A stretch of DNA of 64,000 nucleotides from positions 17,085 to 81,084 of the forward strand of contig JAJCXT010000055.1 of assembly GCA_029263295.1 (NCBI GenBank), written 5' to 3'. Positions within the stretch are counted from its first letter, which is position 1. Each line of letters opens with the position of its first letter. This stretch comes from Acidobacteriota bacterium. Its GTDB lineage: Bacteria > Acidobacteriota > UBA890 > WLXD01. The position numbers were made by a program, and so were the translations under genes. Positions 2 to 54,468 of this stretch are shown piece by piece. The notes below the pieces were generated by a model, which had not been told where the DNA came from, searched no databases, and saw nothing but the letters and a program-made list of their open reading frames with translations.

Positions 2-310
2 AATCCGTTCGCCCCCACCCTCACCGGCAGCGTGAGACTGGGGGGTGTCGTGGGCAGCACGCCGCATCCAGCCAAGCCGCTGGTGCCCGTGCACGGCGGA
101 CCACAGGCCGCGGAGATCAGCGCCGACGGCGAACGTGTGTACCTCTACAGTTCGTCCTCGACGCCCTGGGATAGTCAGTTCTATCCAGCCGGCGTGCCCG
201 GTTGGCTGGCCAGGGTGGACGTCGACCCTGATGGGACCATGAGTGTCGATCGAGGGTTCTTGCCCGACCTGGAAGGCCTGCGCCCGCGCTGCGTGCGTCT
301 CGGCAACTAG
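2..310 (+). CDS. 3' partial CDS: C-terminus of a beta-propeller (lactonase/YVTN-like) repeat protein
   Basis: The frame is open from the window start to a stop at 308-310. It carries the propeller-like repeats 'ISADGERVYLY' and 'VDVDPDGTMSV'. It is not in the ORF track because it runs off the 5' end. Confidence 0.35.
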   Translation, partial: NPFAPTLTGSVRLGGVVGSTPHPAKPLVPVHGGPQAAEISADGERVYLYSSSSTPWDSQFYPAGVPGWLARVDVDPDGTMSVDRGFLPDLEGLRPRCVRLGN

Positions 311-392
311 CGGTCCCAGGGGTAGTCACGCAGGGCCGATGCTGGGACAATCGGCGGGCTCGTGCCGTCACTCTTGGAACGCCCCTTCGCTT

Positions 393-3308
393 ATGTCCGA
401 TCTGGAACGCGCTCGACGTGTCCACACTCTGCTGATCGACGCTCTCGCCTTGTCCGAGGCGGAACGCGGCCGATTCCTGCGGGAGCAGTGCGGCGAGGAT
501 GAAGATCTCATCGGCCAAGTCAACCAGCTCCTGCAGGGGGCCGGCGACGCCGAGCAGTACTTCAACCGACTCGGCGAGGATGTCGGAGATGTACTGGAGG
601 GCACCGCAGAGCGGGCCGCGACTGCCGCCCAGAATGATCCCCCGACTGCCGCGTCACCGGAGCCCGAGCCACCCGAACTCGAAATCGGCCAGAAGCTCGG
701 ACACTTCCGCGTCTCGGGCGAACTCGGCCGCGGCGGCATGGGCACCGTGTACCGCGCCACGGATCTACGACTGGGACGCGAGGTAGCCCTCAAGGTACTG
801 CCGCTCGCGGTCAGCGACGGGTCCGAGATGGCGGAACGGTTCGCGCAAGAGGCGCGCCTGCTGGCCGCGCTCAGCCACACCAACATCGCCTCGATCTTCG
901 GTATCGAGGAAGACGGCGGGCGCCGTCTGCTCGTTCTGGAGCTCGTCGACGGACCCGGCCTCGAGGAGCGTATCGCGCGTGGTCGACTCTCGGTCCGCGA
1001 AAGCCTCGAAACAGCCAGCCAGATCGCACGGGCGCTCGAGGTGGCGCACCGGGCGGGAATCGTGCATCGCGACCTGAAGCCTTCGAACGTGAAGCTCGTG
1101 GGCTCGACCGGCGTGGCGAAGGTACTCGACTTCGGTATCGCGACGGTCTTGCCCGATGCTCGCGTCGCTTCGGCTAGTGCCCACAAGGACATCGTTTCGA
1201 CCGGAGTCGGGAGAGTGCTCGGCACGGTCGCTTACATGAGCCCAGAGCAGGCGCGCGGCGACCAGGTCGACGAACGGACGGACATCTGGGCCTGGGGCTG
1301 CGTGCTCTACGAGATGCTCTGCGGCCAGCGACCGTTCCAGGGCCGCACGGTCACCGACACGCTGGCAGCGATCATCGAACGCGAGCCCGACTGGACCCGA
1401 CTACCGGCCACACTACCGGCCGAGGTGTCCCGCATGCTGCGGCGATGCCTGAACAAGGACCCGCGCCGGCGACTACGCAACGCTGGCGACCTCTGGCTGA
1501 TCCTCGAAGAGCTTTTGCACCCGGGCACTGAGGATGAGCAACCGCTACTCGAGGCGCCGCCAGCCTCGAACTGGCATCGAGTCTTACCCTGGGCGCTCGC
1601 TATCGCCGCTGCGGGTGCGGGGATCTTGCTGGGACGAGGGCTCGACGACCCGGCGGAGGAGCCAACGCGGCGTCTGGAATTGCTGGTAGGCGGCGAGCAA
1701 CTCCGTACGGCTGCGGGCGGACGTACCGTGGCCATCTCGGCCGACGGCACCACCCTGGCTCACACTGCCGACGGGAAGTTGCATCTGCGACCCCTCGATG
1801 CGTTCGAAGACCACGAACTCGAAGGCGGATTTGGCGCCGAGTCGCCCGCATTCTCGCCCGATGGGGCGTGGCTGAGTTTCTTCCAGCGCGGACAGCTGCG
1901 GAAGATCTCGGTGTTGGGCGGTGACCCCTTCCCACTGTGCGCCGCGGCTCTGCCACGTGGGTCCGACTGGGGCGACGACAACCGCATCGTCTTCAGCGAC
2001 GGCGCGTCGCTGTTCACGGTCTCCGGAAGTGGAGGCGACTGCCGTCCGCTCCGCAGTCCCGGCCCCGCGGACGACCAGGTGAAGTTCTTGTGGCCAACCT
2101 GGCTACCTGGTGGAACGCAGGTACTGTTTCAGATGACTGGCCCGCGCTCGAACGGGATCGCTGTCCTCGATGTGGCCAGCGGCGAGATCACGCAGGTGCA
2201 ATCCTCGGGCTCCGACCCTCGCTTCGTTCAGACGGGGCACATCCTCTACACGCGACTGGGCACAGTGTTCGCCGTCTCCTACGATCCCGCTACCGGTGAG
2301 ATCGGCACGAATCCGAGACCCGTCCTCGATGGCATCTCCGCCGAGAGCACCGGCGCCTCACACATGGCGGTGTCGACCGACGGAGTGCTGGCCTATGCTC
2401 CGAGCCCGGATCCTTCACGCGACCTCGTTTGGGTCGCCCGCGACGGCTCCGAGCGTCTGGCTGCACCCGCGAGCGGCGACTACACGACGCCCCGCGTTTC
2501 CCCGGACGCGACGCGCATCGCGGTCGTGATTCGTCGGGCCGGAGAAAGGCAGATCTGGGTCTACGATCTGCGCAATGAGACCGTGCGCCAGCTGACCCAG
2601 GGCGGCACCAATATCTGGCCCGCCTGGGCTCCGGACGGCGAGCGCATCTCGTTCTCGAACGGCATCGAGGGTCCCGCGACGATCTGGTGGCAAAGCGCCG
2701 ACGGCAGCGCGGCGACGAAGATCTCGACCCAGGGCAGGCACCAGTACGCCAGTTCCTGGGCAGCCCATGAGAACGTCATCACTTGGTTCCAGCCAGGCCC
2801 GGACGGCACCCGCGACATCTGGGCGCACCGACTCGACAGCGAGGCGGGGTCCTTTCCGGTCGTGGCGACGTCGGCGCACGAACAGGGTCCCGCGCTATCG
2901 CCCGATGCCCGATGGATCGCCTACGCGGCGAATACGACCGGACGCAACGAAATCTACGTCGAAGCTTGCCCGGGGTGCCGCGGCGGCGACGATAGCGACG
3001 CGCCACAGGGCCGCTGGCAAGTGTCCACCGCGGGCGGCGGCGAAGTGGTCTGGTCACCGCGGGGAGACGAACTCTTCTACCGAGAAGGCAGCAAGGTCAT
3101 GTCGGTCAGCATCGACTTCAGTTCGGGCGTGCCCCGCGCACAGTCACCGATGGAGCTGTTCGACGGCCCCTACGTGATCGGACAATCCGGCAACAGCGAG
3201 TACGCCGTCGCACCCGATGGGGACCGCTTCCTCATGGTGAAGAACCCCGAGGAGTCGGGCGCCCAGCGGATCCGCGTGGTCCTCAACTGGTTTGCCGAGC
3301 TCCCGTAG
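393..3308 (+). CDS. Ser/Thr protein kinase with a C-terminal periplasmic TolB-like (PD40) beta-propeller; single-pass membrane protein
   Basis: The N-terminus has the 'ERxxFLxxxCxxDxxL...VxxLL' motif typical of acidobacterial and myxobacterial kinases. The kinase domain shows GxGxxG ('GRGGMGTV'), VAIK ('VALKVL'), 'HRDLKPSNV', 'DFGIA' and 'SPE'. A TM helix follows ('WHRVLPWALAIAAAGAGILLG'), then repeated 'SPDG/APDG/STDG' PD40 blades. The preferred start is the ATG at 393 (MSDLERARR...); the ORF track start at 243 is a GTG. Confidence 0.85.
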   Translation: MSDLERARRVHTLLIDALALSEAERGRFLREQCGEDEDLIGQVNQLLQGAGDAEQYFNRLGEDVGDVLEGTAERAATAAQNDPPTAASPEPEPPELEIGQKLGHFRVSGELGRGGMGTVYRATDLRLGREVALKVLPLAVSDGSEMAERFAQEARLLAALSHTNIASIFGIEEDGGRRLLVLELVDGPGLEERIARGRLSVRESLETASQIARALEVAHRAGIVHRDLKPSNVKLVGSTGVAKVLDFGIATVLPDARVASASAHKDIVSTGVGRVLGTVAYMSPEQARGDQVDERTDIWAWGCVLYEMLCGQRPFQGRTVTDTLAAIIEREPDWTRLPATLPAEVSRMLRRCLNKDPRRRLRNAGDLWLILEELLHPGTEDEQPLLEAPPASNWHRVLPWALAIAAAGAGILLGRGLDDPAEEPTRRLELLVGGEQLRTAAGGRTVAISADGTTLAHTADGKLHLRPLDAFEDHELEGGFGAESPAFSPDGAWLSFFQRGQLRKISVLGGDPFPLCAAALPRGSDWGDDNRIVFSDGASLFTVSGSGGDCRPLRSPGPADDQVKFLWPTWLPGGTQVLFQMTGPRSNGIAVLDVASGEITQVQSSGSDPRFVQTGHILYTRLGTVFAVSYDPATGEIGTNPRPVLDGISAESTGASHMAVSTDGVLAYAPSPDPSRDLVWVARDGSERLAAPASGDYTTPRVSPDATRIAVVIRRAGERQIWVYDLRNETVRQLTQGGTNIWPAWAPDGERISFSNGIEGPATIWWQSADGSAATKISTQGRHQYASSWAAHENVITWFQPGPDGTRDIWAHRLDSEAGSFPVVATSAHEQGPALSPDARWIAYAANTTGRNEIYVEACPGCRGGDDSDAPQGRWQVSTAGGGEVVWSPRGDELFYREGSKVMSVSIDFSSGVPRAQSPMELFDGPYVIGQSGNSEYAVAPDGDRFLMVKNPEESGAQRIRVVLNWFAELP

Positions 3309-3365: not shown

Positions 3366-6056
3366 ATGTACGAAAAATGCCCACCGAGGCTAGCTGAGCG
3401 CATGCTGCGCTGGGCTACCGCCCGCGCCGATCGCGACTGTGTCGCCGGCGACCTGGCCGAGGAGTTTGCCGTTCGCGCGCAACGCTCCGGCCCTGGTGGA
3501 GCGCGGCGCTGGTACTGGTGGCAGGTGATGCGATCGGTGCCGACGAATCTGCTAACAGGCCGTGAGGTCCAGGCAGCCAGACGCAGCGCGATCCAACTCG
3601 ATACCCCCCTCCGTCGAGGAGACGGCGCGATGAGCAACATGCTGCAGGACATCCGTTACGGCTTCCGGACGCTCGCCAAGAGCCCCACGTTCACTGTGTT
3701 GACCATCAGCACGCTGGCACTGGCCATGGGTGTGAACACGGCGATCTTCAGCATCCTGAATCTCATCCTGATCCAGGATCTTCCGCTCAGGGACACCGAC
3801 ACGCTGGGCTTTATCTACTCGACGAATGCTCAGCTCAACTCCTCGCAGGCGCCGGTGCCCGCAGCTGACTTCCTCGACTATCGAGAAGAGGTTGGCGCCT
3901 TCGGCGACCTCGCGGCGGTCGACCGTGGCGCGTCGTTCACGCTCACCGGCACCGAAGAGCCTGTCTGGATCGAGGGCTTCCTGGCGACAGCGAACACCCT
4001 CGACATCTGGGGCCAGGCGACGATCATGGGCCGGTGGTTCACTCCCGATGAGGACCGCGAAGGCGGTGAGCGCGTGGCCGTGCTCTCGCATGGGTCCTGG
4101 GAGCGACGTTTCGGGTTCGATCCCGACATCGTCGGCCGGGTGATCGACCTCGATGGCTATCCGACCACGCTCATCGGCGTGATGCCCAAGGAGATGGAGT
4201 TCGGCTCGCTGGCGGAAGCCGAGGTATGGGTGCCGGCACGGCTGAACCGCGCCAGTGCGAGCCGTGAAGATCGCACCCTCTGGGTCATAGGCCGCCTCGC
4301 ACCCGGCGCGACGCTCGCACAGGCTCAGCAGGAGGTTGACGCGGTGCGGCAGCGGATCATCGCCGAGGAGCCAGATCTACAGGGACCCTGGGGCGCGATC
4401 GTTTACGACATGAACCGCGCGCTCGCGCCGCCGGACACCTGGATGATCATGTTCATGCTCGGACTCACCGTGACGTTCGTCATGCTGATCGCCTGCTCCA
4501 ACGTGGCCACGATGATGCTGACCCGGGCCTCCGCCCGTTCGCGTGAGATCGCCGTGCGCGCCGCACTTGGTGCGCAGCGCCGCAGACTGCTCGGCCAGCT
4601 CCTCGGCGAGAGCGCCATCCTGTCGCTGGCCGCGGGACTCCTCGGCCTGCTGATCGCGCGCGCCTCGCTCATGGGTCTGATCTGGATGGCAGGCGAAAAC
4701 AGCGGCATGAACATCTTCGGGATGGTCACACTTGATACGACCGTTCTGCTCTTCACTCTCGGGGTCGCCCTCCTGTCGCCCATGCTCTTCGGTTTCATCC
4801 CGGCGCTGCGCGCGTCGCGACCGGACCTCAACGAGACCCTGCGCGAAGGCGCGCGCGGCAGCAGCGGCGGGCCTGGTGGCCTGCGTGGACGCCGCTTCCT
4901 AGTGGCCACCCAGGTCGCGCTGGCGCTGAGTCTCATGGTGGTCGCAGGCGTGCTAATGCAGGCCATGGCGAAGAACCGCAACTATGATCCCGGCTTCGAT
5001 GTCGACAACGTAATGACGATGCGTGTGGATCTCACCGAATCGGAGTATCCGAGCGGTGTGGATCAACTACAGAACTTCTCCCGCATCCGCGCCACCCTCG
5101 CGGCATTGCCCGGCATCGAGAGTGTCACCACCATGGGGTGGCGCCTGGGCGCCAACGACGACCCGATCGTCGCACGCAGCTTCCGCATTGTGGGACAGCC
5201 GGAACCCGATGCCGCCGAGCTCCCGTCGGGGTTCCTCAACGTGGTGAGCGCCGGCACCCTAGGGGTAATGCGGCTGCCACTTCTGAGCGGTCGCGACTTC
5301 ACGGAGAGCGACAACGCAGACTCAGCGCCCGTGGTGATCGTCAATGAACGGCTGGTGGAACGCTACTGGACCGGCCAAGCGCTCGGCAGCCACATCAAGC
5401 TAGGCACCGACGACCGCTCGTTCGAGGTGGTCGGTGTGATGAAGAACATTCACTCTGGAGATTCCAGCAACCCTGCGTTCCCGATCATCTTCGCGCCCCT
5501 GGCGCAGAATCCTCAGCGGCGGATGGGAGTGCTTGCTCGCACGTCTGGTGATCCGCTGGCGATGACCAGCGCCATCCGCGAGGCTATCTGGTCGGTCGAC
5601 GCGGATCAGCCGGTCGCCGACATGCGCACGGTGCATCAGTTGATCGAGGATGCTTTCGCGGCGCCCATGACCCTGTTCTCGATCTTCGTCGCCTTCGCCG
5701 GGTTCGCCGTGGCGATGTCTGCCGCGGGTATCTACGGTGTGATCTCGTACGCGGTGAGCGCGCGCACTCGTGAGATCGGGATTCGCATGGCGCTCGGCGC
5801 GCGTGCCACCGGCGTGCTGGCGATGATCACGCGCCAAGCAATGATGCTGGTCGGGCTCGGCATGGTCGTGGGTGGCGCGGCGGGCATCCTCCTGGGGCGC
5901 CTGCTCTCCAGCGCCATCCCGGATGTTGGCAGCTTCGACCTTCCCTCGTTTCTCGGGGTGCTGGCGGTATTCGCGGCAACGACCCTATTAGCCACCTGGA
6001 TCCCGGCACGGCGCGCCGCGCGCGTCCAACCGGTTACGGCACTACGCAGCGAGTAA
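3366..6056 (+). CDS. MacB/FtsX-type duplicated orphan permease (ADOP family) with N-terminal prefix domain (module 1)
   Basis: 896 aa. The cytoplasmic prefix 'PPRLAERMLRW...GDLAEEF...RWYWWQVMRSV' is followed by a TM helix and a MacB-like periplasmic domain. FtsX block 1 is 'IACSNVATMMLTRASARSREIAVRAALGA'. A second periplasmic domain and FtsX block 2 'ISYAVSARTREIGIRMALGA' follow. The C-terminus is 'PVTALRSE'. No ATPase is adjacent. Confidence 0.85.
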   Translation: MYEKCPPRLAERMLRWATARADRDCVAGDLAEEFAVRAQRSGPGGARRWYWWQVMRSVPTNLLTGREVQAARRSAIQLDTPLRRGDGAMSNMLQDIRYGFRTLAKSPTFTVLTISTLALAMGVNTAIFSILNLILIQDLPLRDTDTLGFIYSTNAQLNSSQAPVPAADFLDYREEVGAFGDLAAVDRGASFTLTGTEEPVWIEGFLATANTLDIWGQATIMGRWFTPDEDREGGERVAVLSHGSWERRFGFDPDIVGRVIDLDGYPTTLIGVMPKEMEFGSLAEAEVWVPARLNRASASREDRTLWVIGRLAPGATLAQAQQEVDAVRQRIIAEEPDLQGPWGAIVYDMNRALAPPDTWMIMFMLGLTVTFVMLIACSNVATMMLTRASARSREIAVRAALGAQRRRLLGQLLGESAILSLAAGLLGLLIARASLMGLIWMAGENSGMNIFGMVTLDTTVLLFTLGVALLSPMLFGFIPALRASRPDLNETLREGARGSSGGPGGLRGRRFLVATQVALALSLMVVAGVLMQAMAKNRNYDPGFDVDNVMTMRVDLTESEYPSGVDQLQNFSRIRATLAALPGIESVTTMGWRLGANDDPIVARSFRIVGQPEPDAAELPSGFLNVVSAGTLGVMRLPLLSGRDFTESDNADSAPVVIVNERLVERYWTGQALGSHIKLGTDDRSFEVVGVMKNIHSGDSSNPAFPIIFAPLAQNPQRRMGVLARTSGDPLAMTSAIREAIWSVDADQPVADMRTVHQLIEDAFAAPMTLFSIFVAFAGFAVAMSAAGIYGVISYAVSARTREIGIRMALGARATGVLAMITRQAMMLVGLGMVVGGAAGILLGRLLSSAIPDVGSFDLPSFLGVLAVFAATTLLATWIPARRAARVQPVTALRSE

Positions 6057-6076
6057 CGCCGCATGGAAATACTGCG

Positions 6077-6403
6077 ATGAGTAAAGGAAACTACCTGGGC
6101 GAATTCGAGATCGTGGTGCTCTCGACCTTGCTGCACCTCGGTGAGAACGCTTACGGAATGACCATTCGCTGCGAGATCGACGAGCACACCGGTCGGTCGG
6201 TGTCGATCGGCGCGATCTACGCCACGTTGCGGCGGCTCGAACGCAAAGGACTGGTCGTCTCGCATCTCGGCGAACCGACCGCCGAGCGCGGTGGTCGTGC
6301 CAAGCGCTTCTTCGCTCTCGAGCCGGCCGGTGAAGACGCCGTCGCACGCTCACGCGCGATGTTCGCCCGTCTCTGGAACGACCTTCCTGAGGCGCGCGGC
6401 TAG
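6077..6403 (+). CDS. PadR-family transcriptional regulator (subtype A; module 1, downstream of its permease)
   Basis: 108 aa winged-HTH with 'LGENAYGMTIRCEI...IYATLRRLERKGLV...ERGGRAKRFFAL'. It starts 21 bp after the ADOP1 stop. Confidence 0.85.
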   Translation: MSKGNYLGEFEIVVLSTLLHLGENAYGMTIRCEIDEHTGRSVSIGAIYATLRRLERKGLVVSHLGEPTAERGGRAKRFFALEPAGEDAVARSRAMFARLWNDLPEARG

Positions 6404-6437
6404 CGCCAAGGCATGGTCAGCATGGATGATGCCTGCC

Positions 6438-7301
6438 CTAGGGTAGGGGATCCAGCCCGCGACGCCGTCGCAGCTTGTCGATTGCGGAGCCGCGACGAGA
6501 ACCGGGCCTCCATCTCCGAAGCCTGCGAGGGTCGATCCGCAACGCCAGCAGAACCCTCCGCAGCCAGTGATCCAGTAGCGCGCGCAGGAGGAGTCTCGTA
6601 GTAAGCCCCTGGAGCGATTCGAGACGCAAGCCGGTCAGTCGGCGTTGCTGGTCGAGCAGCAGTTTGGCGAGCTCCCGGCTTCGAAAGGCCTCCGCGTCGA
6701 CCTGCATCGCCCGGTAGATCGAGCGCTGAGGTTCATCGGGCTGCTCAATGTAGCTGTTGGGCAACGAACTCGGCGCGACCACGGTCAGGCGCGGCACCAC
6801 CACAATCTGCTTCTGCGCCCGCCACACTCGGCTGAGCCAATCCTGTGAGGGCGGGAGGTGAATGGTCCGGAATGGGCGCCAAGGTCCGACTTCATCCACC
6901 ACCGGTCGTCGAACCAACCAGGACGACGCCTCGATCCAGTTGTCGGCGCCGGGTTCGAACCGCAGGCCGCCGATCACGCCGGAGACCCTCCGGTCCCCGC
7001 CAGCCGCGATTCGCTCATCCAGGCAAATCGTCATGTCTGCGCCGCTCGATTCCAGCTTCGACAGCGCCACCTCGAGATGGTCGGGGAACCACAGATCGTC
7101 GTGGTTGAGAAAGGCGATGACGTCCGCACGTGCGCGCCGGATCCCTTCATTGTTGGGGCCCGACTGCTCGCCCACGTTCTCCGCCAAGTTGTGGAAGTGA
7201 ATGCGCGGATCATCGAAAGCACGAACGACGGCCTCGGTATCGTCAGTGCATGCATCTCCGATGACCCACATCTCCCAGTCGCTCTCCGTTTGCCACAGCA
7301 C
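6438..7301 (-). CDS. Family-2 glycosyltransferase (GT2); the N-terminus lacks a canonical start, suggesting a frameshift or fusion with the upstream dehydratase
   Basis: The track ORF starts at the GTG at 7299-7301 ('MLWQTESDWEMWVIGDACTDDTE', '...FLNHDDLWFPDHLE'). Homology continues upstream in the same frame ('SHSPKVSIITATYNRSNVLAYAIRTVLWQ', the classic GT2 N-terminus) to a stop at 7455-7457. There is no ATG/GTG/TTG in between. Confidence 0.6.
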   Translation of the reverse strand: MLWQTESDWEMWVIGDACTDDTEAVVRAFDDPRIHFHNLAENVGEQSGPNNEGIRRARADVIAFLNHDDLWFPDHLEVALSKLESSGADMTICLDERIAAGGDRRVSGVIGGLRFEPGADNWIEASSWLVRRPVVDEVGPWRPFRTIHLPPSQDWLSRVWRAQKQIVVVPRLTVVAPSSLPNSYIEQPDEPQRSIYRAMQVDAEAFRSRELAKLLLDQQRRLTGLRLESLQGLTTRLLLRALLDHWLRRVLLALRIDPRRLRRWRPGSRRGSAIDKLRRRRGLDPLP

Positions 7302-8800
7302 GGTCCGGATCGCGTACGCGAGTACGTTGCTGCGGTTATACGTAGCCGTGATGATCGAGACCTTGGGCGAGTGACTCGCGCGATCAGGGACAGACGCAGG
7401 TGGGCGAGTAGACTGCGCATCTGGTTGGTGAACACATTGCCGAATCGCAGGAGATCAGCGATCTGGCCGAACGTCATCCACCGGTACTCTGCCGGAATCT
7501 CCAAGCGATGATCTTCGTCCAGTTGCACCAGCCGGTACTCGGTCTCGTCGTGATAGAAACGGCCGCCTTCCTCGGACTGGCGAACACAGAGCAGCGTCTT
7601 GTCCTCCGCGACCGTCACCAGCGAGAAGAACGGCTCCGCGGCCAGGAGTTCGCCGGGTTCGTGATCAGATGGCACGCAGTCGACTGTAGCCGTGCACTCG
7701 ACGGAGTCGAAACTCCCGGGTTCCATGGCTGCCTTTACGAGAAAGTGCAGGAGGCCCCGGTGTCGCTGACACAGGAGTGCGACAAGGGCGCGACCGTGCG
7801 TGTGGACCAGCGGCTGGTCCCACTGGCTCACCTCGCGCACGTTGGACGACACCTTGACCTGGATGATCGAGAAGTGACGCTCCCCTTCATGCACGATGCG
7901 ATCCCGCTCGATGCGCCAACCCGCCAAATCCGAGAGAGAGACCACGCGGCGCTCGCGGCGCAGGTCGGCCCGCGCTTGTCCGAACCACGCCATCAAATCG
8001 TCCATCGAGTGCACTGCCGCCGCGTCAGCGGCATCCGACGACTCTCGGAGCGCCGGCCCAAGGTCGTTCGCTACTGCCGATTCTCCGGTGGCACCGCGGA
8101 TCGAGAGCGGCAAGCATGCCAGGACGGAGCGGGCGTCGGTGTTCACCACGTTGTCGCACCGGAGCAGTTCCGACATCTCTTCCAGCGAAATCCAGCGGAA
8201 ACCGTCTCCCGATCCCAGGTCCTCCTCCCCCGTCGTCCGCACAACCATGTTCCGGTTGCGCTTGGCGAGAAACCGCGAGCCTTGTTCGGACTGGAGTTGA
8301 TGCAAGACGACATCGTCCGGATCGGGCCTGGTGAAGCCGCTGAGAAAACGCTGCCCCGAACCACCGTGTATGCGTCGATAGTTGCTCTCGGTCGCCTGCA
8401 CGGTGGGCCCGATTTGCACGCGGCCGATATTACCGGGCTCGGCCTTCGCCTGCGCGAGCAGCTGCACCCTTCCGTCCCGAACTCGGAGCAGGAACCCGAG
8501 GATGCCAAACTCAGGCTGATCGACGATGGGCTGGTGCGCACAGAAAGGGGACCGCGCATCGCCAGCGAGCGCGAGTCCAACGACGGAGAAAAACCCGCCC
8601 GTTCGATGCGAGAGCGCTGAGCGGCCCCCGATCCACTGCCATTCGAGCGAGTCGCCGAACTCGATGCGTTCCACGTCCAGTCGCGTCGCTTCGCGCCGGT
8701 CCTCCAACCACCTCAGGGTGGCTGGCGCGGCGCGTACAGCCGCCACCTTTTGCCTCGCTTCATTGCCCATCGCCCACGAGGTTACTGCAACCGGAGACAA
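7031..8800 (-). CDS. NDP-hexose 2,3-dehydratase-like (two-domain Nudix-like deoxysugar enzyme). The homology ends near 7390; the ORF then reads ~120 codons in an alternative frame over the GT2 5' region
   Basis: It has a TTG start with duplicated halves. Half 1 is 'LSHRTGGFFSVVGL...EPGN...RFL'. Half 2 is 'IVHEGERHFSIIQVKV...EPG..FFSLV...EGGRFYHDE'. From about aa 470 onward the product turns R/S-rich and junk-like, running to the stop at 7031. Confidence 0.55.
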   Translation of the reverse strand: MSPVAVTSWAMGNEARQKVAAVRAAPATLRWLEDRREATRLDVERIEFGDSLEWQWIGGRSALSHRTGGFFSVVGLALAGDARSPFCAHQPIVDQPEFGILGFLLRVRDGRVQLLAQAKAEPGNIGRVQIGPTVQATESNYRRIHGGSGQRFLSGFTRPDPDDVVLHQLQSEQGSRFLAKRNRNMVVRTTGEEDLGSGDGFRWISLEEMSELLRCDNVVNTDARSVLACLPLSIRGATGESAVANDLGPALRESSDAADAAAVHSMDDLMAWFGQARADLRRERRVVSLSDLAGWRIERDRIVHEGERHFSIIQVKVSSNVREVSQWDQPLVHTHGRALVALLCQRHRGLLHFLVKAAMEPGSFDSVECTATVDCVPSDHEPGELLAAEPFFSLVTVAEDKTLLCVRQSEEGGRFYHDETEYRLVQLDEDHRLEIPAEYRWMTFGQIADLLRFGNVFTNQMRSLLAHLRLSLIARVTRPRSRSSRLRITAATYSRTRSGPCCGKRRATGRCGSSEMHALTIPRPSFVLSMIRAFTSTTWRRTWASSRAPTMKGSGAHVRTSSPFSTTTICGSPTISRWRCRSWNRAAQT

Positions 8801-8842
8801 GACCTCACATCGCGGGCGATCGTCCGCAGGAGCGAGACTTCG

Positions 8843-9295
8843 TTATTCCCGCGCAGCTCCGGGTCGCCATGCGGCGACGAGACCGAACAGGCCGATGACG
8901 GTCATGGTGCCCGGAGCCAGCACGGGCGTGGCGCCGGTGAGCGACTCGCGGGCCAACTCGAAGCCGGCGCGATCCGGGTACATCTCGCGCTCGAACTCAA
9001 CGTTGCCCTTGTAGTGGAGCCAGTTGCCGGCGAGGCCGCACACGATGCAAACCCACATCACGCCGGCAACCACGCGACGCAGCCCCTCGCCGGGGCGCCG
9101 CAGGTAGGCGCCCGTCACCAGGATCACCCCGCCAAGCAGGCCCAGCGGAGCGAACTGCCACGTGTCTTCGTAGTGGCCAATCAGAAGCAGCTCCGCGAGC
9201 GTTCCGAGGCTACCGAACAGCAGGACCGCCAGCACTGCACGGCGCAGTGTCCGCGCGATCAAATGCTCGCGTGCTACGCCCGGCTCATTCGTCAC
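8843..9295 (-). CDS. Hypothetical integral membrane protein (about 4 TM helices)
   Basis: 150 aa with hydrophobic segments 'AVLAVLLFGSLGTLAELLLIG', 'LGLLGGVILVTGAYL', 'VMWVCIVCGLAGNWL' and 'VIGLFGLVAAW'. No family is recognised. Confidence 0.4.
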   Translation of the reverse strand: MTNEPGVAREHLIARTLRRAVLAVLLFGSLGTLAELLLIGHYEDTWQFAPLGLLGGVILVTGAYLRRPGEGLRRVVAGVMWVCIVCGLAGNWLHYKGNVEFEREMYPDRAGFELARESLTGATPVLAPGTMTVIGLFGLVAAWRPGAARE

Positions 9296-9308
9296 TCTGA
9301 ATCCGCGC

Positions 9309-9944
9309 CTACTGGCCGATGGTCATGTAGCGCTCGAAGCGGGCAACCTCGTCCTCGTCGACATACTTGCCCATCTCGCGGCGAAACTGCTCGATGCCCG
9401 CGTAGGGTCGGTACTCTTCGAACTCGTGGATCATGCGCGGGCCCACACCCGGGATCGTCGCAAAGGCCTCGGACGATGCCGAGTTCAAGTCCAGCGGCAC
9501 GAAGACGAACTGCGCGAGCCTGGCCACCTCGTCATCGTCCACGTACTTGCCCATCTCGCGGCGAAACACCGCCAAGCCCACGTACGGCCGGTACTCCTCG
9601 AACTCGTGGGCCATGCGATTGCCGACGCCGGGGATCAGAAGAACCTCGGCCTCGGTCACGTCGTTCAGATTGATCGGCAGCCACAGCTGGCCATAGAGCT
9701 CGCTCTGCTGTTCTTCGCTCAGACCGGCGCCCACGGCGGCATGCAAGGTCGCCATGCTCAGCCAAGGCCTGCCCGCCAGGACTTTCGCGGCGCCGTCAGC
9801 TCCGAGCTGCGGCACTGCCGTCAGTTCCTCTTCCGAGGCCAGGTTCGGGTTGAGCAGGCCCTGACTATCGCCAACCTGGGCCAGCAGAGGACCAGCGATC
9901 AGTAACAACAGAACCAACGCGGGGCACAAGATACGGCGCTGCAT
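9309..9944 (-). CDS. Secreted ComEA-like helix-hairpin-helix (HhH) repeat DNA-binding protein
   Basis: Signal peptide 'ILCPALVLLLLIAGPLLAQ'. A first HhH lies at 'LNPNLASEEELTAVPQLGADGAAKVLAGRP'. Two near-identical units follow: 'IPGVG[NP]RM.HEFEEYRPY.G...FRREMGKYVD.DEVAR'. Confidence 0.6.
   Translation of the reverse strand: MQRRILCPALVLLLLIAGPLLAQVGDSQGLLNPNLASEEELTAVPQLGADGAAKVLAGRPWLSMATLHAAVGAGLSEEQQSELYGQLWLPINLNDVTEAEVLLIPGVGNRMAHEFEEYRPYVGLAVFRREMGKYVDDDEVARLAQFVFVPLDLNSASSEAFATIPGVGPRMIHEFEEYRPYAGIEQFRREMGKYVDEDEVARFERYMTIGQ
9312..9635 (-). repeat. Intragenic tandem duplication (~2 x 160-180 bp) encoding the two HhH units of the ComEA-like protein
   Basis: Near-identical DNA appears twice, about 180 bp apart. 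For example 'gtacttgcccatctcgcggcgaaac' occurs near 9365 and 9546, and 'cggtactc(t/c)tcgaactcgtgg' occurs twice. Confidence 0.6.
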
Positions 9945-10185
9945 GGGCAGGCTCCTGGACGGTGTCGGATGAGCGGAATCGATGGGCCGAGATCAATCCA
10001 CAGAAGGGGAGTCGGATATCAGTTCGAAGTATGCCAGATCGAACTGCCGCCAGACCGCGGCGCGGGAACCGCCGGACCGGCTGGCCAGTTCTGACCGCTG
10101 AGACTGATCGGCACGTTCGTCTACGTTCGTGATACTATATCCATATGTGGATATATCTAGCAGTGGGTAGAGCCGGGGTGCGGCT

Positions 10186-12861
10186 GTGAGCCCGGCAGCA
10201 CGCTGGTACGAGCGCATCCTGCGCTTGGGGCCGCGTTCGCTGCGTCGCGACTTCGGCGACGACATGGTGGCGGCATTCGACGCGATGCTCGCCGATGAGT
10301 GCGCCTCTGGGAATCCGCTACCGCGCCTGAGGGTGTGGTCGCGTGTCCTGACCGATCTGCTCGTGTCCAGCCTGAACAGCATCCGGGGCCAGTCCCCCGT
10401 GTATCGAATCCCCCGAAAGAGAACTCCCATGGAATCCCGTTTTCAGGACATTCGTTTCGCTCTGCGCACGATGCGAAGGCAGCCGCTGTTCGCCGTAGTC
10501 GCCATAGCAACGATCGCGATTGGCATCAGCGCTACCGCGACGATCTTCAGCATCGCCAACGGTCTGCTGCTTCGCGCCCCGACCGGCGTGCGCGAAAGTT
10601 CGGAACTGGTGAGCATTCACCGTGTGGCCCAGGACGAAACCGGTTTTCACTCCTTCGGACTACCCGCCTTTCGCCATCTGGCGAGCGCCGACAATGGCCT
10701 CACGAACATGGCGGCCTACGACAGCTTCGGCGGCAGCCTGGTAATCGACAGCACGCCCTATCGCGTTGCCGGCTCGATCGTATCCGCGAACTACTTCGAG
10801 ACGGTGGGCGTTCGCGCGGGCCTGGGGCGCTTCTTCTACCCCGAGGAAGACACCGTGCCCGGGCGCGACCTGGTCGCAGTGATCAGCGATCGTATGTGGC
10901 ACGAGCGCTACCGGGGGGACCCGGACATCATCGGCAGCGAGCTCGTTCTGAACGGCCGCGGGTTCGTGATTATCGGCGTGACCGAGCCTGAATTCATCGG
11001 CCACCTCGCAGCTTTCCTGAACGACGTCTGGGTCCCGTTGTCGGCTCAGGGTCTGATTCGCGGCGCGACAAACCTGTCCGAAGAAGAGGCTTCGGTCGGC
11101 CTGGAGATCGTGGCTCGTCTCGCGCCGGGGTCCAATGTGGAACTGGCCCAGGACGCCATCGACAGGGCGGGCAGCGCGTTTCATGAGCCTCGCGACGAGA
11201 AGTGGTTCGGGGCTGACGTGTACGCCTACGCGCCGATCGTGCCGATCGCACGGCAGGGGCTCAACCTGTTCCTGGCCGCCATGTTCGTGGTCGCCGGCGT
11301 GCTGCTCACCATCACCGCCGTCAACGTCGCGAACATGATGTTGTCGCGCGCCGCCGCCCGGTCGCGAGAGATCGGCGTTCGCTTGGCCCTGGGCGCCACC
11401 CGTGGCCGACTGGTCACGCAGTTGCTCACAGAGAGCGTGATTCTGTTCCTCTGCGGCGGTGTCCTCGGAACGCTCATCACGGTCTGGACAACCGGCCTGC
11501 TGGGGAGCCTCGCCCTGCCAATTCCGATCCCGATGGACCTGCATTTCGCGCCGGATTTTCGAGTCCTGGCGTTCGCGCTCACGATGGCGGCCACCACCGG
11601 CATCGCGTTCGGGTTGTCGCCCGCACTGCACGCCACGCGTGGTGACCTCACCGGCGCGCTCAAGGAGAACGGCACGCCACCACGGCGCCGTCAACGACTG
11701 CGCAGCGTTCTGGTAGTCACGCAGGTGGCCGGCTCCGCATTGCTGCTGGTCGTCGCGGGGTTGCTGATTCGCTCGGCCGGGCGCGTCACCTCACTCGACC
11801 TCGGGCTCGACACCAACGATGTCCACGCGTTCATGCTCGATACCCGCGAGGCGAATCGATCGCCGGACGAGAGTCGGCAGTTCTACGGAACCCTCCTGAA
11901 CGACGCGGCGAGCTTCTCAGGCGTCGACTCGATTGGTGCCATCGATGTCCCTCCGTTGACCGGCAGCAACCAGCAGAGCACGGTGATCCTGCCGGACATG
12001 CCGCCGGAGCCAGAGGTGGGCCTGCGCAAGGTGGAGTTCGCGCAGGTCTCCCCCAGCTACCTCGCCACAATGCGCATCCCGCTGGTGGCCGGCCGCCAGT
12101 TCAGCGACGCCGACACGGCCGACACGCCCAAGGTCGTCATCGTGAACGAGCATCTGGCGAATACCTTCTGGCCCGGTGAGAGCGCCGTCGGCAAGCGTTT
12201 CGCCTTCCGGGCAGCGAACGATCCGATCGACCTCGAGATCGTTGGGGTGGCCCGCGACAGCAAGATCCGAACGCCCGGCGATCAGGCCCGACCTCTGGTC
12301 TACGGCCACTGGGAGCAGTTCGGCGGCCGCGGGTACACGGTTGTGGCGCGCGTCGAGAGCCCGTCCGTGGCACTGATGATCCGCGACTACGTCAGCGAGA
12401 TCGACCCGGTACTGCCGCCGGCGCAGCCCATCGAGTACGCCGAACTAGTGGGCCTGTCATTGCTGCCGGCGAAGATCGCGACGATTCTCGCCACAGTGTT
12501 CGGCGCGGCGGGCCTGCTTCTCGTAGCACTGGGCCTCTACGGCCTTCTAGCCTATTCGGTAGCCCAGCGATCACACGAGATCGGCGTGCGTATGGCGCTG
12601 GGTGCTCACCAGTCCAGCGTGCGGAGCATGATCGTCGGCGACGGGCTCCGACTTACCGTGGTGGGACTCGGCATCGGTCTCCTGGCGGCCGCCGGCCTCG
12701 GCCAGCTCATTCGCTGGATGCTGTTCGGCCTGAGCCCATTCGACCCGGTCACATTCATCAGCATCGCCGTGCTGCTGTTGACCATCGCCGGCCTGGCCTG
12801 CTGGCTACCGGCGCGCCGCGCCGCGGCGACCAACCCCGTCAACGCATTGAGAGCAGAGTAA
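10186..12861 (+). CDS. MacB/FtsX-type duplicated orphan permease (ADOP family) with prefix domain (module 2)
   Basis: 891 aa with a GTG start. The prefix is 'ARWYERILRLGPRSLRRDFGDDMVAAF...LPRLRVWSRVLTDLL'. FtsX block 1 is 'NVANMMLSRAAARSREIGVRLALGA' and block 2 is 'YSVAQRSHEIGVRMALGA'. The C-terminus is 'PVNALRAE'. Confidence 0.85.
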   Translation: MSPAARWYERILRLGPRSLRRDFGDDMVAAFDAMLADECASGNPLPRLRVWSRVLTDLLVSSLNSIRGQSPVYRIPRKRTPMESRFQDIRFALRTMRRQPLFAVVAIATIAIGISATATIFSIANGLLLRAPTGVRESSELVSIHRVAQDETGFHSFGLPAFRHLASADNGLTNMAAYDSFGGSLVIDSTPYRVAGSIVSANYFETVGVRAGLGRFFYPEEDTVPGRDLVAVISDRMWHERYRGDPDIIGSELVLNGRGFVIIGVTEPEFIGHLAAFLNDVWVPLSAQGLIRGATNLSEEEASVGLEIVARLAPGSNVELAQDAIDRAGSAFHEPRDEKWFGADVYAYAPIVPIARQGLNLFLAAMFVVAGVLLTITAVNVANMMLSRAAARSREIGVRLALGATRGRLVTQLLTESVILFLCGGVLGTLITVWTTGLLGSLALPIPIPMDLHFAPDFRVLAFALTMAATTGIAFGLSPALHATRGDLTGALKENGTPPRRRQRLRSVLVVTQVAGSALLLVVAGLLIRSAGRVTSLDLGLDTNDVHAFMLDTREANRSPDESRQFYGTLLNDAASFSGVDSIGAIDVPPLTGSNQQSTVILPDMPPEPEVGLRKVEFAQVSPSYLATMRIPLVAGRQFSDADTADTPKVVIVNEHLANTFWPGESAVGKRFAFRAANDPIDLEIVGVARDSKIRTPGDQARPLVYGHWEQFGGRGYTVVARVESPSVALMIRDYVSEIDPVLPPAQPIEYAELVGLSLLPAKIATILATVFGAAGLLLVALGLYGLLAYSVAQRSHEIGVRMALGAHQSSVRSMIVGDGLRLTVVGLGIGLLAAAGLGQLIRWMLFGLSPFDPVTFISIAVLLLTIAGLACWLPARRAAATNPVNALRAE

Positions 12862-12866
12862 GCACG

Positions 12867-13175
12867 ATGAGCCAACCGTTGCGCCCGCTGGTGTTCCAGA
12901 TTCTCCTGATCCTCAACGAGGAGGAAACACACGGCTACGGAATCATGAAAGCCGTTAACGAACGCACAGGCCGTAAGACGATCCTGGGACCGGCCACGCT
13001 CTACCGCACGCTCGGACAGATGCGTGACCAGGGACTGATCGACGAGACCCCCACCGACGATGAGCGGCGCCGCGTCTACACGCTGAGCGAAGAAGGGCGC
13101 CGCATGGCCCGGGACGAGGCCGAGCGCATGGCGATGCTCGTGGAACGGGCGCGCGCCGGGCGGCTCCTTGGCTAG
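12867..13175 (+). CDS. PadR-family transcriptional regulator (subtype B; module 2, downstream of its permease)
   Basis: 102 aa with 'LVFQILLILNEEETHGYGIMKAVNERTG...LYRTLGQMRDQGLI...RRVYTLSEEG'. It lies 5 bp after the ADOP2 stop. Confidence 0.85.
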   Translation: MSQPLRPLVFQILLILNEEETHGYGIMKAVNERTGRKTILGPATLYRTLGQMRDQGLIDETPTDDERRRVYTLSEEGRRMARDEAERMAMLVERARAGRLLG

Positions 13176-19510: not shown

Positions 19511-19849
19511 ATGACTCGTTCCGCAGCACTCAATGACGTCGAACAGTTTGTTCTACTGGCACTCTTGCGCCTCGGCGAGAACGCGTACGGGGTCCCGATC
19601 CGGGCAGAGATCGAGGAGCGAGCCGACCGCGCCATCTCGATGGCTGCCGTCTACGCAGCTCTGGACCGCATGCAGCGCGGTGGACTGATCGCAGCACAAC
19701 TTTCCGAGCCGCGCCCCGAGCGTGGCGGCCGCGCCCGCAAGCATTTTCGTTTACGTCCGGCAGGCACCCGCGCACTCGAGGACGCCCGCGGCGCGATGGA
19801 TCGCATGTGGGATGGCGTCGATCTGCCAACGGACGCGGAGGCACGGTGA
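19511..19849 (+). CDS. PadR-family transcriptional regulator (subtype A; module 3)
   Basis: 112 aa with 'LGENAYGVPIRAEIEERADRAISMAAVYAALDRMQRGGLI...ERGGRARKHFRL'. It is closest to PadR-1. Confidence 0.85.
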   Translation: MTRSAALNDVEQFVLLALLRLGENAYGVPIRAEIEERADRAISMAAVYAALDRMQRGGLIAAQLSEPRPERGGRARKHFRLRPAGTRALEDARGAMDRMWDGVDLPTDAEAR

Positions 19850-30231: not shown

Positions 30232-30606
30232 ATGAGCGGGACCGCATCAGAATCCGCGATTGGCGAACTCTTACCGTTGCACACGCGCGACTTTCACATC
30301 CTGCTGACATTGCTCGACGGCGACTGTCACGGCTACGGCCTGGTGAAGGCCATCGAGCGGCGCACCGCGGGCGAGCTGAGCCTCGATCCCGCCAATCTGT
30401 ATCGTGCCCTCCAACGGCTGAAGCAGAGCCGCCTGGTTCGCGACGCTGAAGCGCCGATCGCCGGCGAGGCCGATGGTCGCACGCGTCGTTATCACGGCAT
30501 CACCGATCTCGGCAGAACCACGCTCGAGGCAGAGGCTCAGCGCATGCGCCAGCTCGCCGACGCCGTGCAGGCCCGCGGCGCAGTGGCCTCGTCGGAGGAG
30601 TCGTGA
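30232..30606 (+). CDS. PadR-family transcriptional regulator (subtype B; module 4)
   Basis: 124 aa with 'FHILLTLLDGDCHGYGLVKAIERRTAGELSLDPANLYRALQRLKQSRLV'. Confidence 0.85.
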   Translation: MSGTASESAIGELLPLHTRDFHILLTLLDGDCHGYGLVKAIERRTAGELSLDPANLYRALQRLKQSRLVRDAEAPIAGEADGRTRRYHGITDLGRTTLEAEAQRMRQLADAVQARGAVASSEES

Positions 30607-36661: not shown

Positions 36662-37006
36662 GTGTCTGAACCGCAAGATTTGATTCCGCTTCGACCCGTT
36701 GACCTACAAATCCTGCTCGTGCTTGCCAACGCCAACCTGCATGGTTACGGCGTGATGAAGGCCGTTCGGGAAGAGTCGGGCGGCCGGGTCGGCCTCGAAG
36801 TCGGGTCGCTCTACCGCGTCATCAACCGCCTGCTGGACAGCGACCTGATCGAGCAGGTCGCGCCGGCAGCCGGCAGCGATGACCCGCGACGCAAACACGA
36901 CTACGCCATCACCGAACTCGGCCGTGCCACGGTTCGCGCCGAGAGCGAGCGCCTCGCCCAGGTGTTGGCCACCGCGCGCGCACGCGACCTGGCTGGCCGA
37001 GCGTGA
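36662..37006 (+). CDS. PadR-family transcriptional regulator (subtype B; module 6)
   Basis: 114 aa with 'VDLQILLVLANANLHGYGVMKAVREESGGRVGLEVGSLYRVINRLLDSDLI'. Confidence 0.85.
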   Translation: MSEPQDLIPLRPVDLQILLVLANANLHGYGVMKAVREESGGRVGLEVGSLYRVINRLLDSDLIEQVAPAAGSDDPRRKHDYAITELGRATVRAESERLAQVLATARARDLAGRA

Positions 37007-54146: not shown

Positions 54147-54468
54147 ACCGCACGACAAAGCGCTGGAAAAGCTGCTGCGCATAAGCCGCAGCACCAGCTT
54201 CGGGCCGGGCTTCGCTGATCGGGTGATGCGCCGCGTAGATCGCGAGCAGGCGGGCCCGTTCGCGGCGATCATGCCGACCGAGTTCTTCCGCCTGGCTGTT
54301 GTCGCGCTGGTGATCGCGGTCGCGCTGATCACGTTCAACATCGCCGGCAAGGCGGCGGACAGCTCACAGACGACGCTCGAGGCGGTACTCGGGCTGCAAC
54401 CGCTCACCGCCGACGCCGTGTACGACCCGGTGGCGGTCTTCTCGGCTGAAGGTGCGACGACATCATGA
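54139..54468 (+). CDS. Putative anti-sigma factor (single-pass membrane protein)
   Basis: 109 aa that overlaps the sigma factor stop by 8 bp. It has one TM helix 'FFRLAVVALVIAVALITF'. Confidence 0.5.
   Translation: MNEPHDKALEKLLRISRSTSFGPGFADRVMRRVDREQAGPFAAIMPTEFFRLAVVALVIAVALITFNIAGKAADSSQTTLEAVLGLQPLTADAVYDPVAVFSAEGATTS

What the first reader, a model, noticed from the sequence alone, without database searches (positions are those of the whole stretch)
7290..7460. 2,3-dehydratase and GT2 genes collide in different frames with no start codon for the GT2
On the minus strand the NDP-hexose 2,3-dehydratase-like ORF (TTG at 8800) keeps its homology to about 7390. It then continues as R/S-rich junk to a stop at 7031. 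The GT2 homology ('PKVSIITATYNRS...') begins at about 7375 in another frame. That frame is bounded upstream by a stop at 7455-7457 and has no ATG/GTG/TTG before 7299. There are three readings. It could be a single-base indel in the assembly. It could be a genuine frameshift pseudogene of one or both genes. Or it could be a programmed frameshift that yields a dehydratase-GT2 fusion. A deoxysugar dehydratase fused or coupled to a GT2 would point to a dedicated deoxysugar glycan or glycolipid pathway.
Basis: seen in the sequence. Interest (0 to 1): 0.55.

Follow-up and report, generated by a model that had tools for sequence, protein, structure and literature searches.

The report
One base breaks overlapping stop/start codons
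Two neighbouring sugar-pathway genes look as if they collide only because one base has changed in the four-letter overlap (GTGA, here GCGA) that normally holds the stop of the first gene and the start of the second, which is an ordinary point lesion or base-call error and not a frameshift or a gene fusion.

Summary
On the minus strand the EvaA-type NDP-hexose 2,3-dehydratase ORF (TTG 8800) has no stop until 7033-7031. The GT2 frame, closed upstream by TGA 7457-7455, has no ATG/GTG/TTG before GTG 7301.

The three closest orthologous loci (L165, L002, L001) have two separate genes that overlap by 4 nt (ATGA or GTGA). The window aligns to L165 and L002 without a gap across the junction and reads GCGA (7379-7376) at that spot.

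A single C in place of T at 7378 (minus strand) turns the stop TGA into CGA and the start GTG into GCG. The restored dehydratase ends at the same residue as its closest homologues. The restored GT2 begins MSHSPKVSIIT, matching P0122's MSSAPRVTIVM.

GC3 periodicity switches frame at 7378. There is no slippery heptamer and no homopolymer of 4 or more. No dehydratase-GT2 fusion appears among the best 150 of 1.84 billion representatives.

Both genes are otherwise intact, so this is either a recent real mutation that disables both genes or a base-call error. Reads are needed to decide. It is ordinary and of low interest.

The parts
7379..8800 (-). Coding region proper of the EvaA-type NDP-hexose 2,3-dehydratase (474 codons). 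The start is TTG 8800 or possibly ATG 8770. The last homologous codon is GCG 7381-7379 (Ala474).
   Evidence: Pfam PF03559 matches in two stretches at 388 bits. PDB 4J7G EvaA matches at E 3.7e-80 over residues 29-469. The closest homologues P0001 and P0002 end at exactly this residue. GC by codon position is 0.70/0.46/0.77.
7376..7379 (-). Degenerate stop/start overlap. It reads GCGA where the orthologues read ATGA (L165, L002) or GTGA (L001).
   Evidence: The DNA alignment to L165 and L002 across the junction is ungapped. Five intact [A/G]TGA overlaps occur elsewhere in the window.
7378..7378 (-). The single responsible base. It is C on the minus strand (G on the plus strand). A T here would give the stop TGA (7378-7376) for the dehydratase and the start GTG (7379-7377) for the GT2.
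   Evidence: Codon tables are.
7031..7378 (-). Read-through tail of the dehydratase ORF: 115 out-of-frame codons laid over the GT2 gene, then the stop at 7033-7031.
   Evidence: No family matches this part. GC3 is 0.61 in this frame and 0.79 in the GT2 frame. None of the 40 aligned homologues has such a tail.
6438..7379 (-). GT2 glycosyltransferase coding region: 313 codons if codon 7379-7377 is read as the start, with the stop at 6440-6438. No canonical start codon is present at its 5' end.
   Evidence: PF00535 scores 80.4 bits against a cut-off of 23.3. Identity to P0122-P0132 is 46-58% over the full length, with the N-terminus aligned to the Met of P0122. The N-terminus aligns to SpsA residues 1-114.
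7299..7301 (-). First canonical start (GTG) in the GT2 frame. It gives a 287-aa product lacking the first 26 residues. This is the gene call found in the public protein collection (P0121).
   Evidence: The missing residues include the family-invariant P5 and T13-Y14-N15-R16-S17-N18-V19-L20.
7455..7457 (-). TGA that closes the GT2 reading frame upstream.

Best explanation
These are two separate genes, an EvaA-type NDP-hexose 2,3-dehydratase and a GT2 glycosyltransferase. Their ancestral arrangement is a 4-nt stop/start overlap (GTGA), the usual layout for coupling translation of the second gene to termination of the first.

In this assembly the overlap reads GCGA. One base, C instead of T at 7378 on the minus strand, removes both the dehydratase stop (TGA to CGA) and the GT2 start (GTG to GCG). 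It is a substitution, not an indel, and no change of reading frame has occurred.

If the C is real, I infer three consequences:

- Ribosomes read through into 115 out-of-frame codons and make a 589-aa tailed dehydratase.
- They no longer terminate at the junction, so coupled re-initiation is lost.
- The GT2 can start only at GTG 7301, losing the invariant first strand and the TYNRSNVL loop, or at very weak non-canonical codons (ATT 7445, ATC 7355/7352).

The two-gene module would then be largely switched off by a single hit.

Both genes are otherwise intact, so the change is either very recent or an error. I put a real allele in the organism or population at about 0.55-0.6, and a base-call or consensus error at about 0.3-0.35.

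**Shown:** the lesion, its position, and the ancestral layout. **Inferred:** the effects on expression and the real-versus-error split.
For: - **Orthologue layout.** L001 has the dehydratase at 399-1811 and the GT2 at 1808-2800, overlapping as GTGA. L002 has genes at 230-1624 and 1621 onward, overlapping as ATGA. L165 has a dehydratase C-terminal fragment at 3-209 and the GT2 (P0122) at 206-1231, overlapping as ATGA.
- **No gap at the junction.** The window, L165 and L002 align without a gap over about 140 nt. The G and A of the TGA are invariant, and only the T is replaced by C in the window.
- **Restored dehydratase end.** It would read ...LLAHLRLSLIA*, the same length as P0001 (...LLAWVRLEAMQ*) and P0002 (...IVAWLRLSVES*).
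- **Restored GT2 start.** MSHSPKVSIITATYNRSNVL aligns residue for residue with P0122's MSSAPRVTIVMATYNRSNVL.
- **Codon-position GC.** GC3 is 0.77 in the dehydratase frame up to 7379 and 0.79 in the GT2 frame from 7375. In the 75 nt of open GT2 frame upstream of 7379, GC3 in that frame is only 0.36.
- **The overlap type is used elsewhere in the window.** Five intact [A/G]TGA overlaps are at 30603-30606, 37003-37006, 54465-54468, 44603-44600 and 62470-62467.
- **Pairs elsewhere are always separate genes.** In all 11 dehydratase-then-GT2 loci, five have a 4-nt overlap and six have a 0-17 nt spacer.
- **Both genes are otherwise intact.** The window keeps every invariant column of alignments A1 and A2. 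These include the equivalents of the EvaA catalytic residues E139 and E190 (PMC8987622) and the GT2 DD motif D94-D95.
- **Indel errors look rare here.** Seven ADOP permease genes of about 2.7 kb are all full length, and about 90% of the window is coding.
- **Coupling in such overlaps is established.** Translation of both genes was strictly coupled in 13 of 14 overlapping pairs tested (PMC6728339).
- **Non-canonical starts are weak.** They initiate at 0.01-2% of AUG in E. coli (bioRxiv 10.1101/063800).
Against: - No reads and no close strain are available. The nearest GT2 is 58% identical and the nearest dehydratase 52%. The base at 7378 therefore cannot be checked, and the ancestral GTGA is inferred from relatives at about 50-60% protein identity.
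- Two of the three closest loci have ATGA, which would need two changes to become GCGA. Only L001 has GTGA.
- No Shine-Dalgarno-like motif lies upstream of 7379 in the window, so the strength of the ancestral coupling is unknown.
- Nothing here measures expression. A tailed dehydratase might still be active.
Confidence: 0.9

Rival explanations
1. A single-base indel, either an assembly error or a genuine frameshift mutation, has thrown one or both genes out of frame. This covers the first reader's readings 1 and 2.
For: The two homologous regions lie in different frames with no stop or start between them. On its face that looks like a frameshift. A CCC run at 7368-7366 could in principle be under-called, which would give a seamless fusion reading ...TRPKVSIIT.
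Against: - The window aligns without a gap to L165 and L002 from the dehydratase C-terminus through the GT2 N-terminus.
- Dehydratase homology runs in frame right up to the codon that is the stop in the orthologues.
- GT2 homology begins at the codon that is their start.
- The frame offset is the one a 4-nt overlap produces.
- There is no homopolymer of 4 or more in 7470-7300.
- Other long genes in the window show no sign of indels.
Confidence: 0.03
2. A programmed -1 ribosomal frameshift, or a true gene fusion, produces a dehydratase-GT2 fusion protein.
For: The GT2 frame is open for 25 codons (7454-7380) alongside the dehydratase frame. A -1 slip anywhere in that stretch would give a fusion.
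Against: - There is no X XXY YYZ slippery heptamer in any frame of 7470-7300.
- None of the best 120 hits or one search carries both PF03559 and PF00535.
- None of the best 150 hits of an exhaustive HMMER search of 1.84 billion representatives with the conceptual fusion covers both halves.
- The long hits in that search are fusions to radical SAM, thioesterase or acetyltransferase domains.
- All 11 orthologous or analogous pairs are separate genes with a stop codon.
Confidence: 0.02
3. The GCGA state is genuine and tolerated. The 589-aa tailed dehydratase works, and enough GT2 is made from a non-canonical start (ATT 7445 or ATC 7355/7352) or from GTG 7301.
For: - Both ORFs are otherwise undamaged and keep all family-invariant residues.
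- Near-cognate codons exist in the GT2 frame.
- Non-canonical codons can initiate at 0.01-2% of AUG in E. coli (bioRxiv 10.1101/063800).
Against: - GTG 7301 removes 26 residues. These include ten invariant positions and the segment that aligns to the start of the SpsA GT-A fold.
- In the 75 nt between ATT 7445 and 7379 the GT2 frame has no coding signature, with GC3 of 0.36.
- Ribosomes reading the dehydratase tail would run across the whole 5' third of the GT2 gene.
- No homologue has such a tail.
- Intactness is equally expected from a very recent mutation or from a base-call error.
Confidence: 0.05

Closest known systems
[quoted passage not shown] 2019, PMC6728339)
   Same: The orthologous dehydratase/GT2 pairs in L001, L002, L165, L052 and L071 have exactly this 4-nt overlap. 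The window uses it at five other gene junctions.
   Different: In the window the overlap reads GCGA. Neither the stop nor the start is present, so the defining feature is lost at this junction.
EvaA, dTDP-4-keto-6-deoxyglucose 2,3-dehydratase of Amycolatopsis orientalis (PDB 4J7G; Pfam PF03559)
   Same: The architecture is the same, with two tandem Nudix-like domains. The match is E 3.7e-80 over residues 29-469, and the equivalents of the catalytic E139 and E190 are conserved (PMC8987622).
   Different: It is not in an antibiotic or deoxysugar gene cluster. It is paired only with a GT2, and RmlA/RmlB, ketoreductase and aminotransferase genes were not found in the window ORFs I scanned. This copy also carries a 115-aa out-of-frame tail.
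GT-A fold family-2 glycosyltransferases such as SpsA (PDB 1QG8/1H7L) and the chondroitin polymerase K4CP (2Z86)
   Same: The N-terminal 110 residues align from the first strand onward, with a DD motif at D94-D95.
   Different: The C-terminal half, including the conserved tail ...IDRLRRxRGLxPL, matches no solved structure by sequence. In this copy the start codon is missing.
Programmed -1 ribosomal frameshift sites (for example dnaX and IS3-family transposases). This comparison rests on general knowledge, not on a paper read here.
   Same: The only shared feature is two overlapping reading frames on one strand.
   Different: There is no slippery heptamer and no conserved fusion product, and the orthologues terminate at the junction.

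Membership tests
4-nt stop/start overlap (translational coupling by termination-reinitiation) | The upstream stop TGA shares bases with the downstream start as ATGA or GTGA | tested here: not met
   The window reads GCGA at 7379-7376. The feature is met in orthologues L001, L002, L165, L052 and L071. The window junction is a degenerate copy of this layout.
4-nt stop/start overlap (translational coupling by termination-reinitiation) | Translation of the downstream gene depends on translation and termination of the upstream gene | not testable with these tools
   This needs reporter fusions or ribosome profiling. The general behaviour is described in PMC6728339.
NDP-hexose 2,3-dehydratase (EvaA family, PF03559) | Two tandem PF03559 domains scoring above the Pfam cut-off | tested here: met
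   388.3 bits against a cut-off of 25, in two stretches.
NDP-hexose 2,3-dehydratase (EvaA family, PF03559) | Catalytic glutamates equivalent to EvaA E139 and E190 | tested here: met
   In the alignment to 4J7G, window E121 (AEPGN) pairs with E139 and E172 (QSEQGS) pairs with E190. The catalytic roles are taken from PMC8987622.
NDP-hexose 2,3-dehydratase (EvaA family, PF03559) | 2,3-dehydration of a dTDP-4-keto-6-deoxyhexose | not testable with these tools
   This needs an enzyme assay.
Glycosyltransferase family 2 (GT-A fold, PF00535) | PF00535 match above the cut-off that starts at the first strand | tested here: met
   80.4 bits against a cut-off of 23.3. Profile position 1 falls at codon 7358. 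The region aligns to SpsA residues 1-114.
Glycosyltransferase family 2 (GT-A fold, PF00535) | Acidic DXD-type motif | tested here: met
   NHDD, with D94 and D95 invariant in alignment A2.
Glycosyltransferase family 2 (GT-A fold, PF00535) | An expressible full-length ORF with a canonical start codon upstream of the first strand | tested here: not met
   There is no ATG/GTG/TTG between TGA 7457-7455 and GTG 7301.
Programmed -1 ribosomal frameshift | Slippery heptamer X XXY YYZ within the overlap of the two frames | tested here: not met
   None was found in 7470-7300 in any frame.
Programmed -1 ribosomal frameshift | The fused product or the shift site is conserved in relatives | tested here: not met
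   No hit with both domains appears. All 11 pairs are separate genes.
Frameshift (indel) pseudogene | A gap of 1 or 2 nt (not a multiple of three) relative to intact orthologues | tested here: not met
   The alignment to L165 and L002 across the junction is ungapped.

The most novel reading that the evidence does not exclude
The C at 7378 is genuine and stable in this lineage, and the cell still makes both activities. That could happen through a tolerated 115-aa tail plus non-canonical or re-coded initiation of the GT2, or through rare -1 slippage giving a dehydratase-GT2 fusion.

Separately, the stand-alone two-gene module (EvaA-like dehydratase plus GT2) recurs in Acidobacteriota-like, cyanobacterial, Pseudomonas and betaproteobacterial genomes, and I found no other deoxysugar genes beside it in the loci I checked. 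It could make an undescribed 2-deoxy-sugar glycoconjugate.
Probability: 0.05. Interest if true: 0.5.

Novelty: already known. Interest (0 to 1): 0.15.

Why it matters
The main value is practical, for annotation.

- A single substitution in an [A/G]TGA overlap looks like a frameshift or a fusion. It yields a chimeric 589-aa ORF and a truncated 287-aa GT2 call. The truncated call (P0121) is already in a public protein collection, while the dehydratase product is absent from it.
- A check for this pattern is simple: an ungapped alignment to orthologues, with stop and start lost at the same four bases. It would stop such cases being filed as frameshifts or fusions.

If the allele is real, it shows how overlapping stop/start codons let one mutation silence two coupled genes.

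The recurring stand-alone dehydratase+GT2 pair is a modest lead for glycobiology.

Tried and rejected
- **Conceptual fusion as a query.** I searched it against 5.8 billion proteins and exhaustively against 1.84 billion representatives. No protein among the listed best hits covered both halves. The long hits were other fusions.
- **Metagenome scan with the GT2 family.** It returned 80 loci, none with a dehydratase within 3 kb. It gave no extra junctions and showed only that most members of this GT2 family are not paired.
- **Genome scan with the dehydratase family.** The source genome and any close strain were absent (best identity 42%). It did yield eight more pairs.
- **Looking up the source contig.** An exact look-up of P0121's contig found nothing on record. 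A look-up of the 589-aa and 579-aa dehydratase products also found nothing. The organism and the sequencing platform remain unknown.
- **CGA as a reassigned codon.** Rejected. CGA is an ordinary sense codon, used 118 times in 14 genes.
- **Insertion scars, promoters and terminators around 6000-10400.** Nothing found.
- **tRNA and Rfam scans of the window.** No hits.
- **Other deoxysugar genes.** None found in the window ORFs scanned with Pfam or beside the pair in the relatives checked.
- **A missing C in the CCC run at 7368-7366.** Considered as a route to a seamless fusion. Rejected because the ungapped orthologue alignment and the exact end and start positions fit the substitution account better.
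Full report

- A 589-codon ORF runs on the minus strand from TTG 8800 to the stop at 7033-7031.
- In a second minus-strand frame, a TGA at 7457-7455 is followed by 52 codons with no ATG, GTG or TTG until GTG 7301-7299.
- The long ORF matches only PF03559 (NDP-hexose 2,3-dehydratase), in two stretches at 388 bits.
- The second frame matches PF00535 (GT2) at 80 bits, with profile position 1 at codon 7358.

So one gene lacks a stop, the other lacks a start, and they sit in different frames.

**Where each gene should end and begin.** I aligned 40 dehydratase homologues.

- Homology in the dehydratase frame holds through ...FTNQMRSLLAHLRLSLIA (codon 7381-7379).
- The two closest homologues, P0001 (52% identity) and P0002 (50%), stop after exactly that many residues.
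- None of the 40 has anything like the 115-residue Arg/Ser-rich tail.

For the GT2, twelve full-length relatives (46-58% identical) place the Met of the closest one on window codon 7379-7377. That relative is P0122, which begins MSSAPRVTIVMATYNRSNVL. The window would then read (M)SHSPKVSIITATYNRSNVL.

**What orthologous loci look like.**

- On the contig of P0002 (L001), the called genes are the dehydratase at 399-1811 and a GT2 at 1808-2800.
- On the contig of P0001 (L002), they are at 230-1624 and from 1621 onward.
- On the contig of P0122 (L165), a dehydratase C-terminal fragment ends at 209 and the GT2 starts at 206.
- The sequences show GTGA in L001 and ATGA in L002 and L165. In each, the stop TGA of the first gene shares three bases with the start of the second.
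- The window, L165 and L002 align without a single gap from the dehydratase C-terminus through the GT2 N-terminus. L001 differs only by a 15-nt insertion inside the GT2 N-terminus.
- At the four overlap positions the window reads GCGA (7379-7376).

With a T at 7378 (minus strand; A on the plus strand), the dehydratase codon CGA becomes TGA and the GT2 codon GCG becomes GTG. One base therefore explains both anomalies. The different frames are simply what a 4-nt overlap produces.

**Independent support.**

- Codon-position GC content switches at that point. In the dehydratase frame GC3 is 0.77 up to 7379 and falls to 0.61 in the tail. In the GT2 frame GC3 is 0.79 from 7375 onward, but only 0.36 in the 75 open nucleotides upstream of 7379.
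- The window contains five intact overlaps of the same kind. GTGA occurs at 30603-30606, 37003-37006 and 62470-62467. ATGA occurs at 54465-54468 and 44603-44600.
- Among 80 genome loci fetched with the dehydratase family, eight more have a related GT2 directly downstream. Together with the three closest loci, that makes 11 pairs, all of them separate genes. Five have a 4-nt overlap and six have a 0-17 nt spacer.

**Rejecting the frame-change readings.**

- An indel would need a gap against the orthologues, and there is none.
- The stretch 7470-7300 has no homopolymer of four or more and no X XXY YYZ heptamer in any frame.
- None of the best 120 hits or one search carries both domains.
- An exhaustive HMMER search with the conceptual fusion against 1.84 billion representatives listed no protein covering both halves among its best 150.
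- The few long hits in that search are dehydratases fused to radical-SAM, thioesterase or acetyltransferase domains.
- CGA is an ordinary arginine codon here, used 118 times in 14 genes, so codon reassignment is not an option.

**Real mutation or error?** This cannot be settled without reads. No closer relative exists in the collections searched: the next GT2 is 58% identical and the next dehydratase 52%.

Apart from this base, both genes are intact.

- The window sequence keeps every invariant column of both family alignments.
- It keeps the equivalents of the EvaA catalytic residues E139 and E190 (roles from PMC8987622).
- It keeps the GT2 DD motif.

So the change is either very recent or an artefact.

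The rest of the window looks clean. Seven ADOP permease genes of about 2.7 kb are all full length and about 90% of the window is coding. That argues against a noisy, indel-prone assembly.

The lesion is already in the public record. The truncated 287-aa GT2 call from GTG 7301 is in the protein collection (P0121, from an NCBI contig of 161,169 bp), while the dehydratase product is absent.

My estimate is about 0.55-0.6 for a real allele and 0.3-0.35 for a base-call or consensus error. This is a judgement, not a measurement.

**Likely consequences if real (inferred).**

- Ribosomes would not stop at the junction. They would add 115 out-of-frame residues to the dehydratase and run over the first third of the GT2 gene.
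- Coupled re-initiation would be lost. Translation of both genes was strictly coupled in 13 of 14 overlapping pairs tested (PMC6728339).
- The GT2 could start at GTG 7301. That removes 26 residues, including ten invariant positions and the segment aligning to the first strand and nucleotide-binding loop of SpsA.
- Otherwise it could start at weak non-canonical codons (ATT 7445, ATC 7355/7352). In E. coli such codons initiate at 0.01-2% of AUG (bioRxiv 10.1101/063800).
- One hit would thus largely silence both genes.

**Context.** The source carries seven ADOP-family permeases (TIGR03434, 814 bits) with PadR partners. That family was named after Acidobacteria (acidobacterial duplicated orphan permease), so I suspect an Acidobacteriota-like organism, but I did not test the taxonomy. 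Overall GC is 65%.

I scanned about 35 window ORFs with Pfam and found no other deoxysugar genes. The same two-gene module stands alone among unrelated neighbours in L001, L053 (Pseudomonas neustonica), L064 (Aphanothece) and L074 (Vicinamibacterales).

What the unit makes is unknown.

**Verdict.** The frameshift and fusion interpretations are not supported. The best explanation is a single-base loss of an overlapping stop/start (GTGA to GCGA), with confidence 0.9. It is an ordinary, already-known kind of lesion, of practical interest mainly for annotation.

Noticed in passing
L002 1765-1767 (contig of P0001, coverage 0.6x): The GT2 of the closest orthologous locus has an in-frame TAA where the window and P0122 have Glu (...CTDDS*AVVRAF). 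This is a second single-base lesion in the same gene pair, here in a very low-coverage contig.
   Followed up: partly
window 6438-8800; L001, L053, L064, L074: The EvaA-like dehydratase plus GT2 pair is a stand-alone two-gene module. I found no RmlA/RmlB, ketoreductase or aminotransferase genes in the window ORFs scanned with Pfam or beside the pair in the relatives from several phyla that I checked. The neighbours are unrelated in each case. Its product is unknown.
   Followed up: partly
L083-L162 (80 metagenome loci): The GT2 subfamily has a conserved C-terminal tail (...IDRLRRxRGLxPL) and is widespread. None of these 80 loci has a dehydratase within 3 kb, so the pairing is limited to a small subset.
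   Followed up: partly
window 243-3308, 3366-6056, 10186-12861, 19807-22542, 30603-33359, 33846-36569, 37003-39732: There are seven paralogous ADOP-family duplicated permeases (TIGR03434). Several follow a PadR-like gene of about 100 aa, with a GTGA overlap at 30603-30606 and at 37003-37006. The PadR genes at 6077-6403 and 12867-13175 have no permease downstream. The minus-strand block 6438-9944 lies between PadR 6077 and the next permease at 10186.
   Followed up: partly
window 9309-9944 (-): The helix-hairpin-helix (ComEA-like) ORF contains an internal 125-nt direct repeat, 9332-9456 and 9512-9636, at 80% identity. This is a tandem domain duplication.
   Followed up: no
window 7031-8800 and 6438-7301: The public protein collection holds the truncated 287-aa GT2 call (P0121, from an NCBI contig of 161,169 bp). 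It does not hold the dehydratase product in the 589-aa or 579-aa form I looked up. The lesion has therefore already affected downstream annotation.
   Followed up: yes
window 7376-7383: With C at 7378 the junction forms the 8-nt palindrome TCGCGCGA, which occurs five times in the window. I did not examine whether this is a methylation motif that could bias base calling.
   Followed up: no
P0300, P0315, P0331, P0026/P0046/P0059/P0062: EvaA-like dehydratase domains occur fused to a radical-SAM domain (936 aa), a thioesterase, a hexapeptide acetyltransferase and FdtA-like domains. None of the listed best hits is fused to a GT2.
   Followed up: partly
L163 (contig of P0003): In this relative the dehydratase is followed by a 506-aa GT2 on the opposite strand, convergent and overlapping by about 85 nt. 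A GT2 neighbour therefore recurs even where the orientation differs.
   Followed up: no
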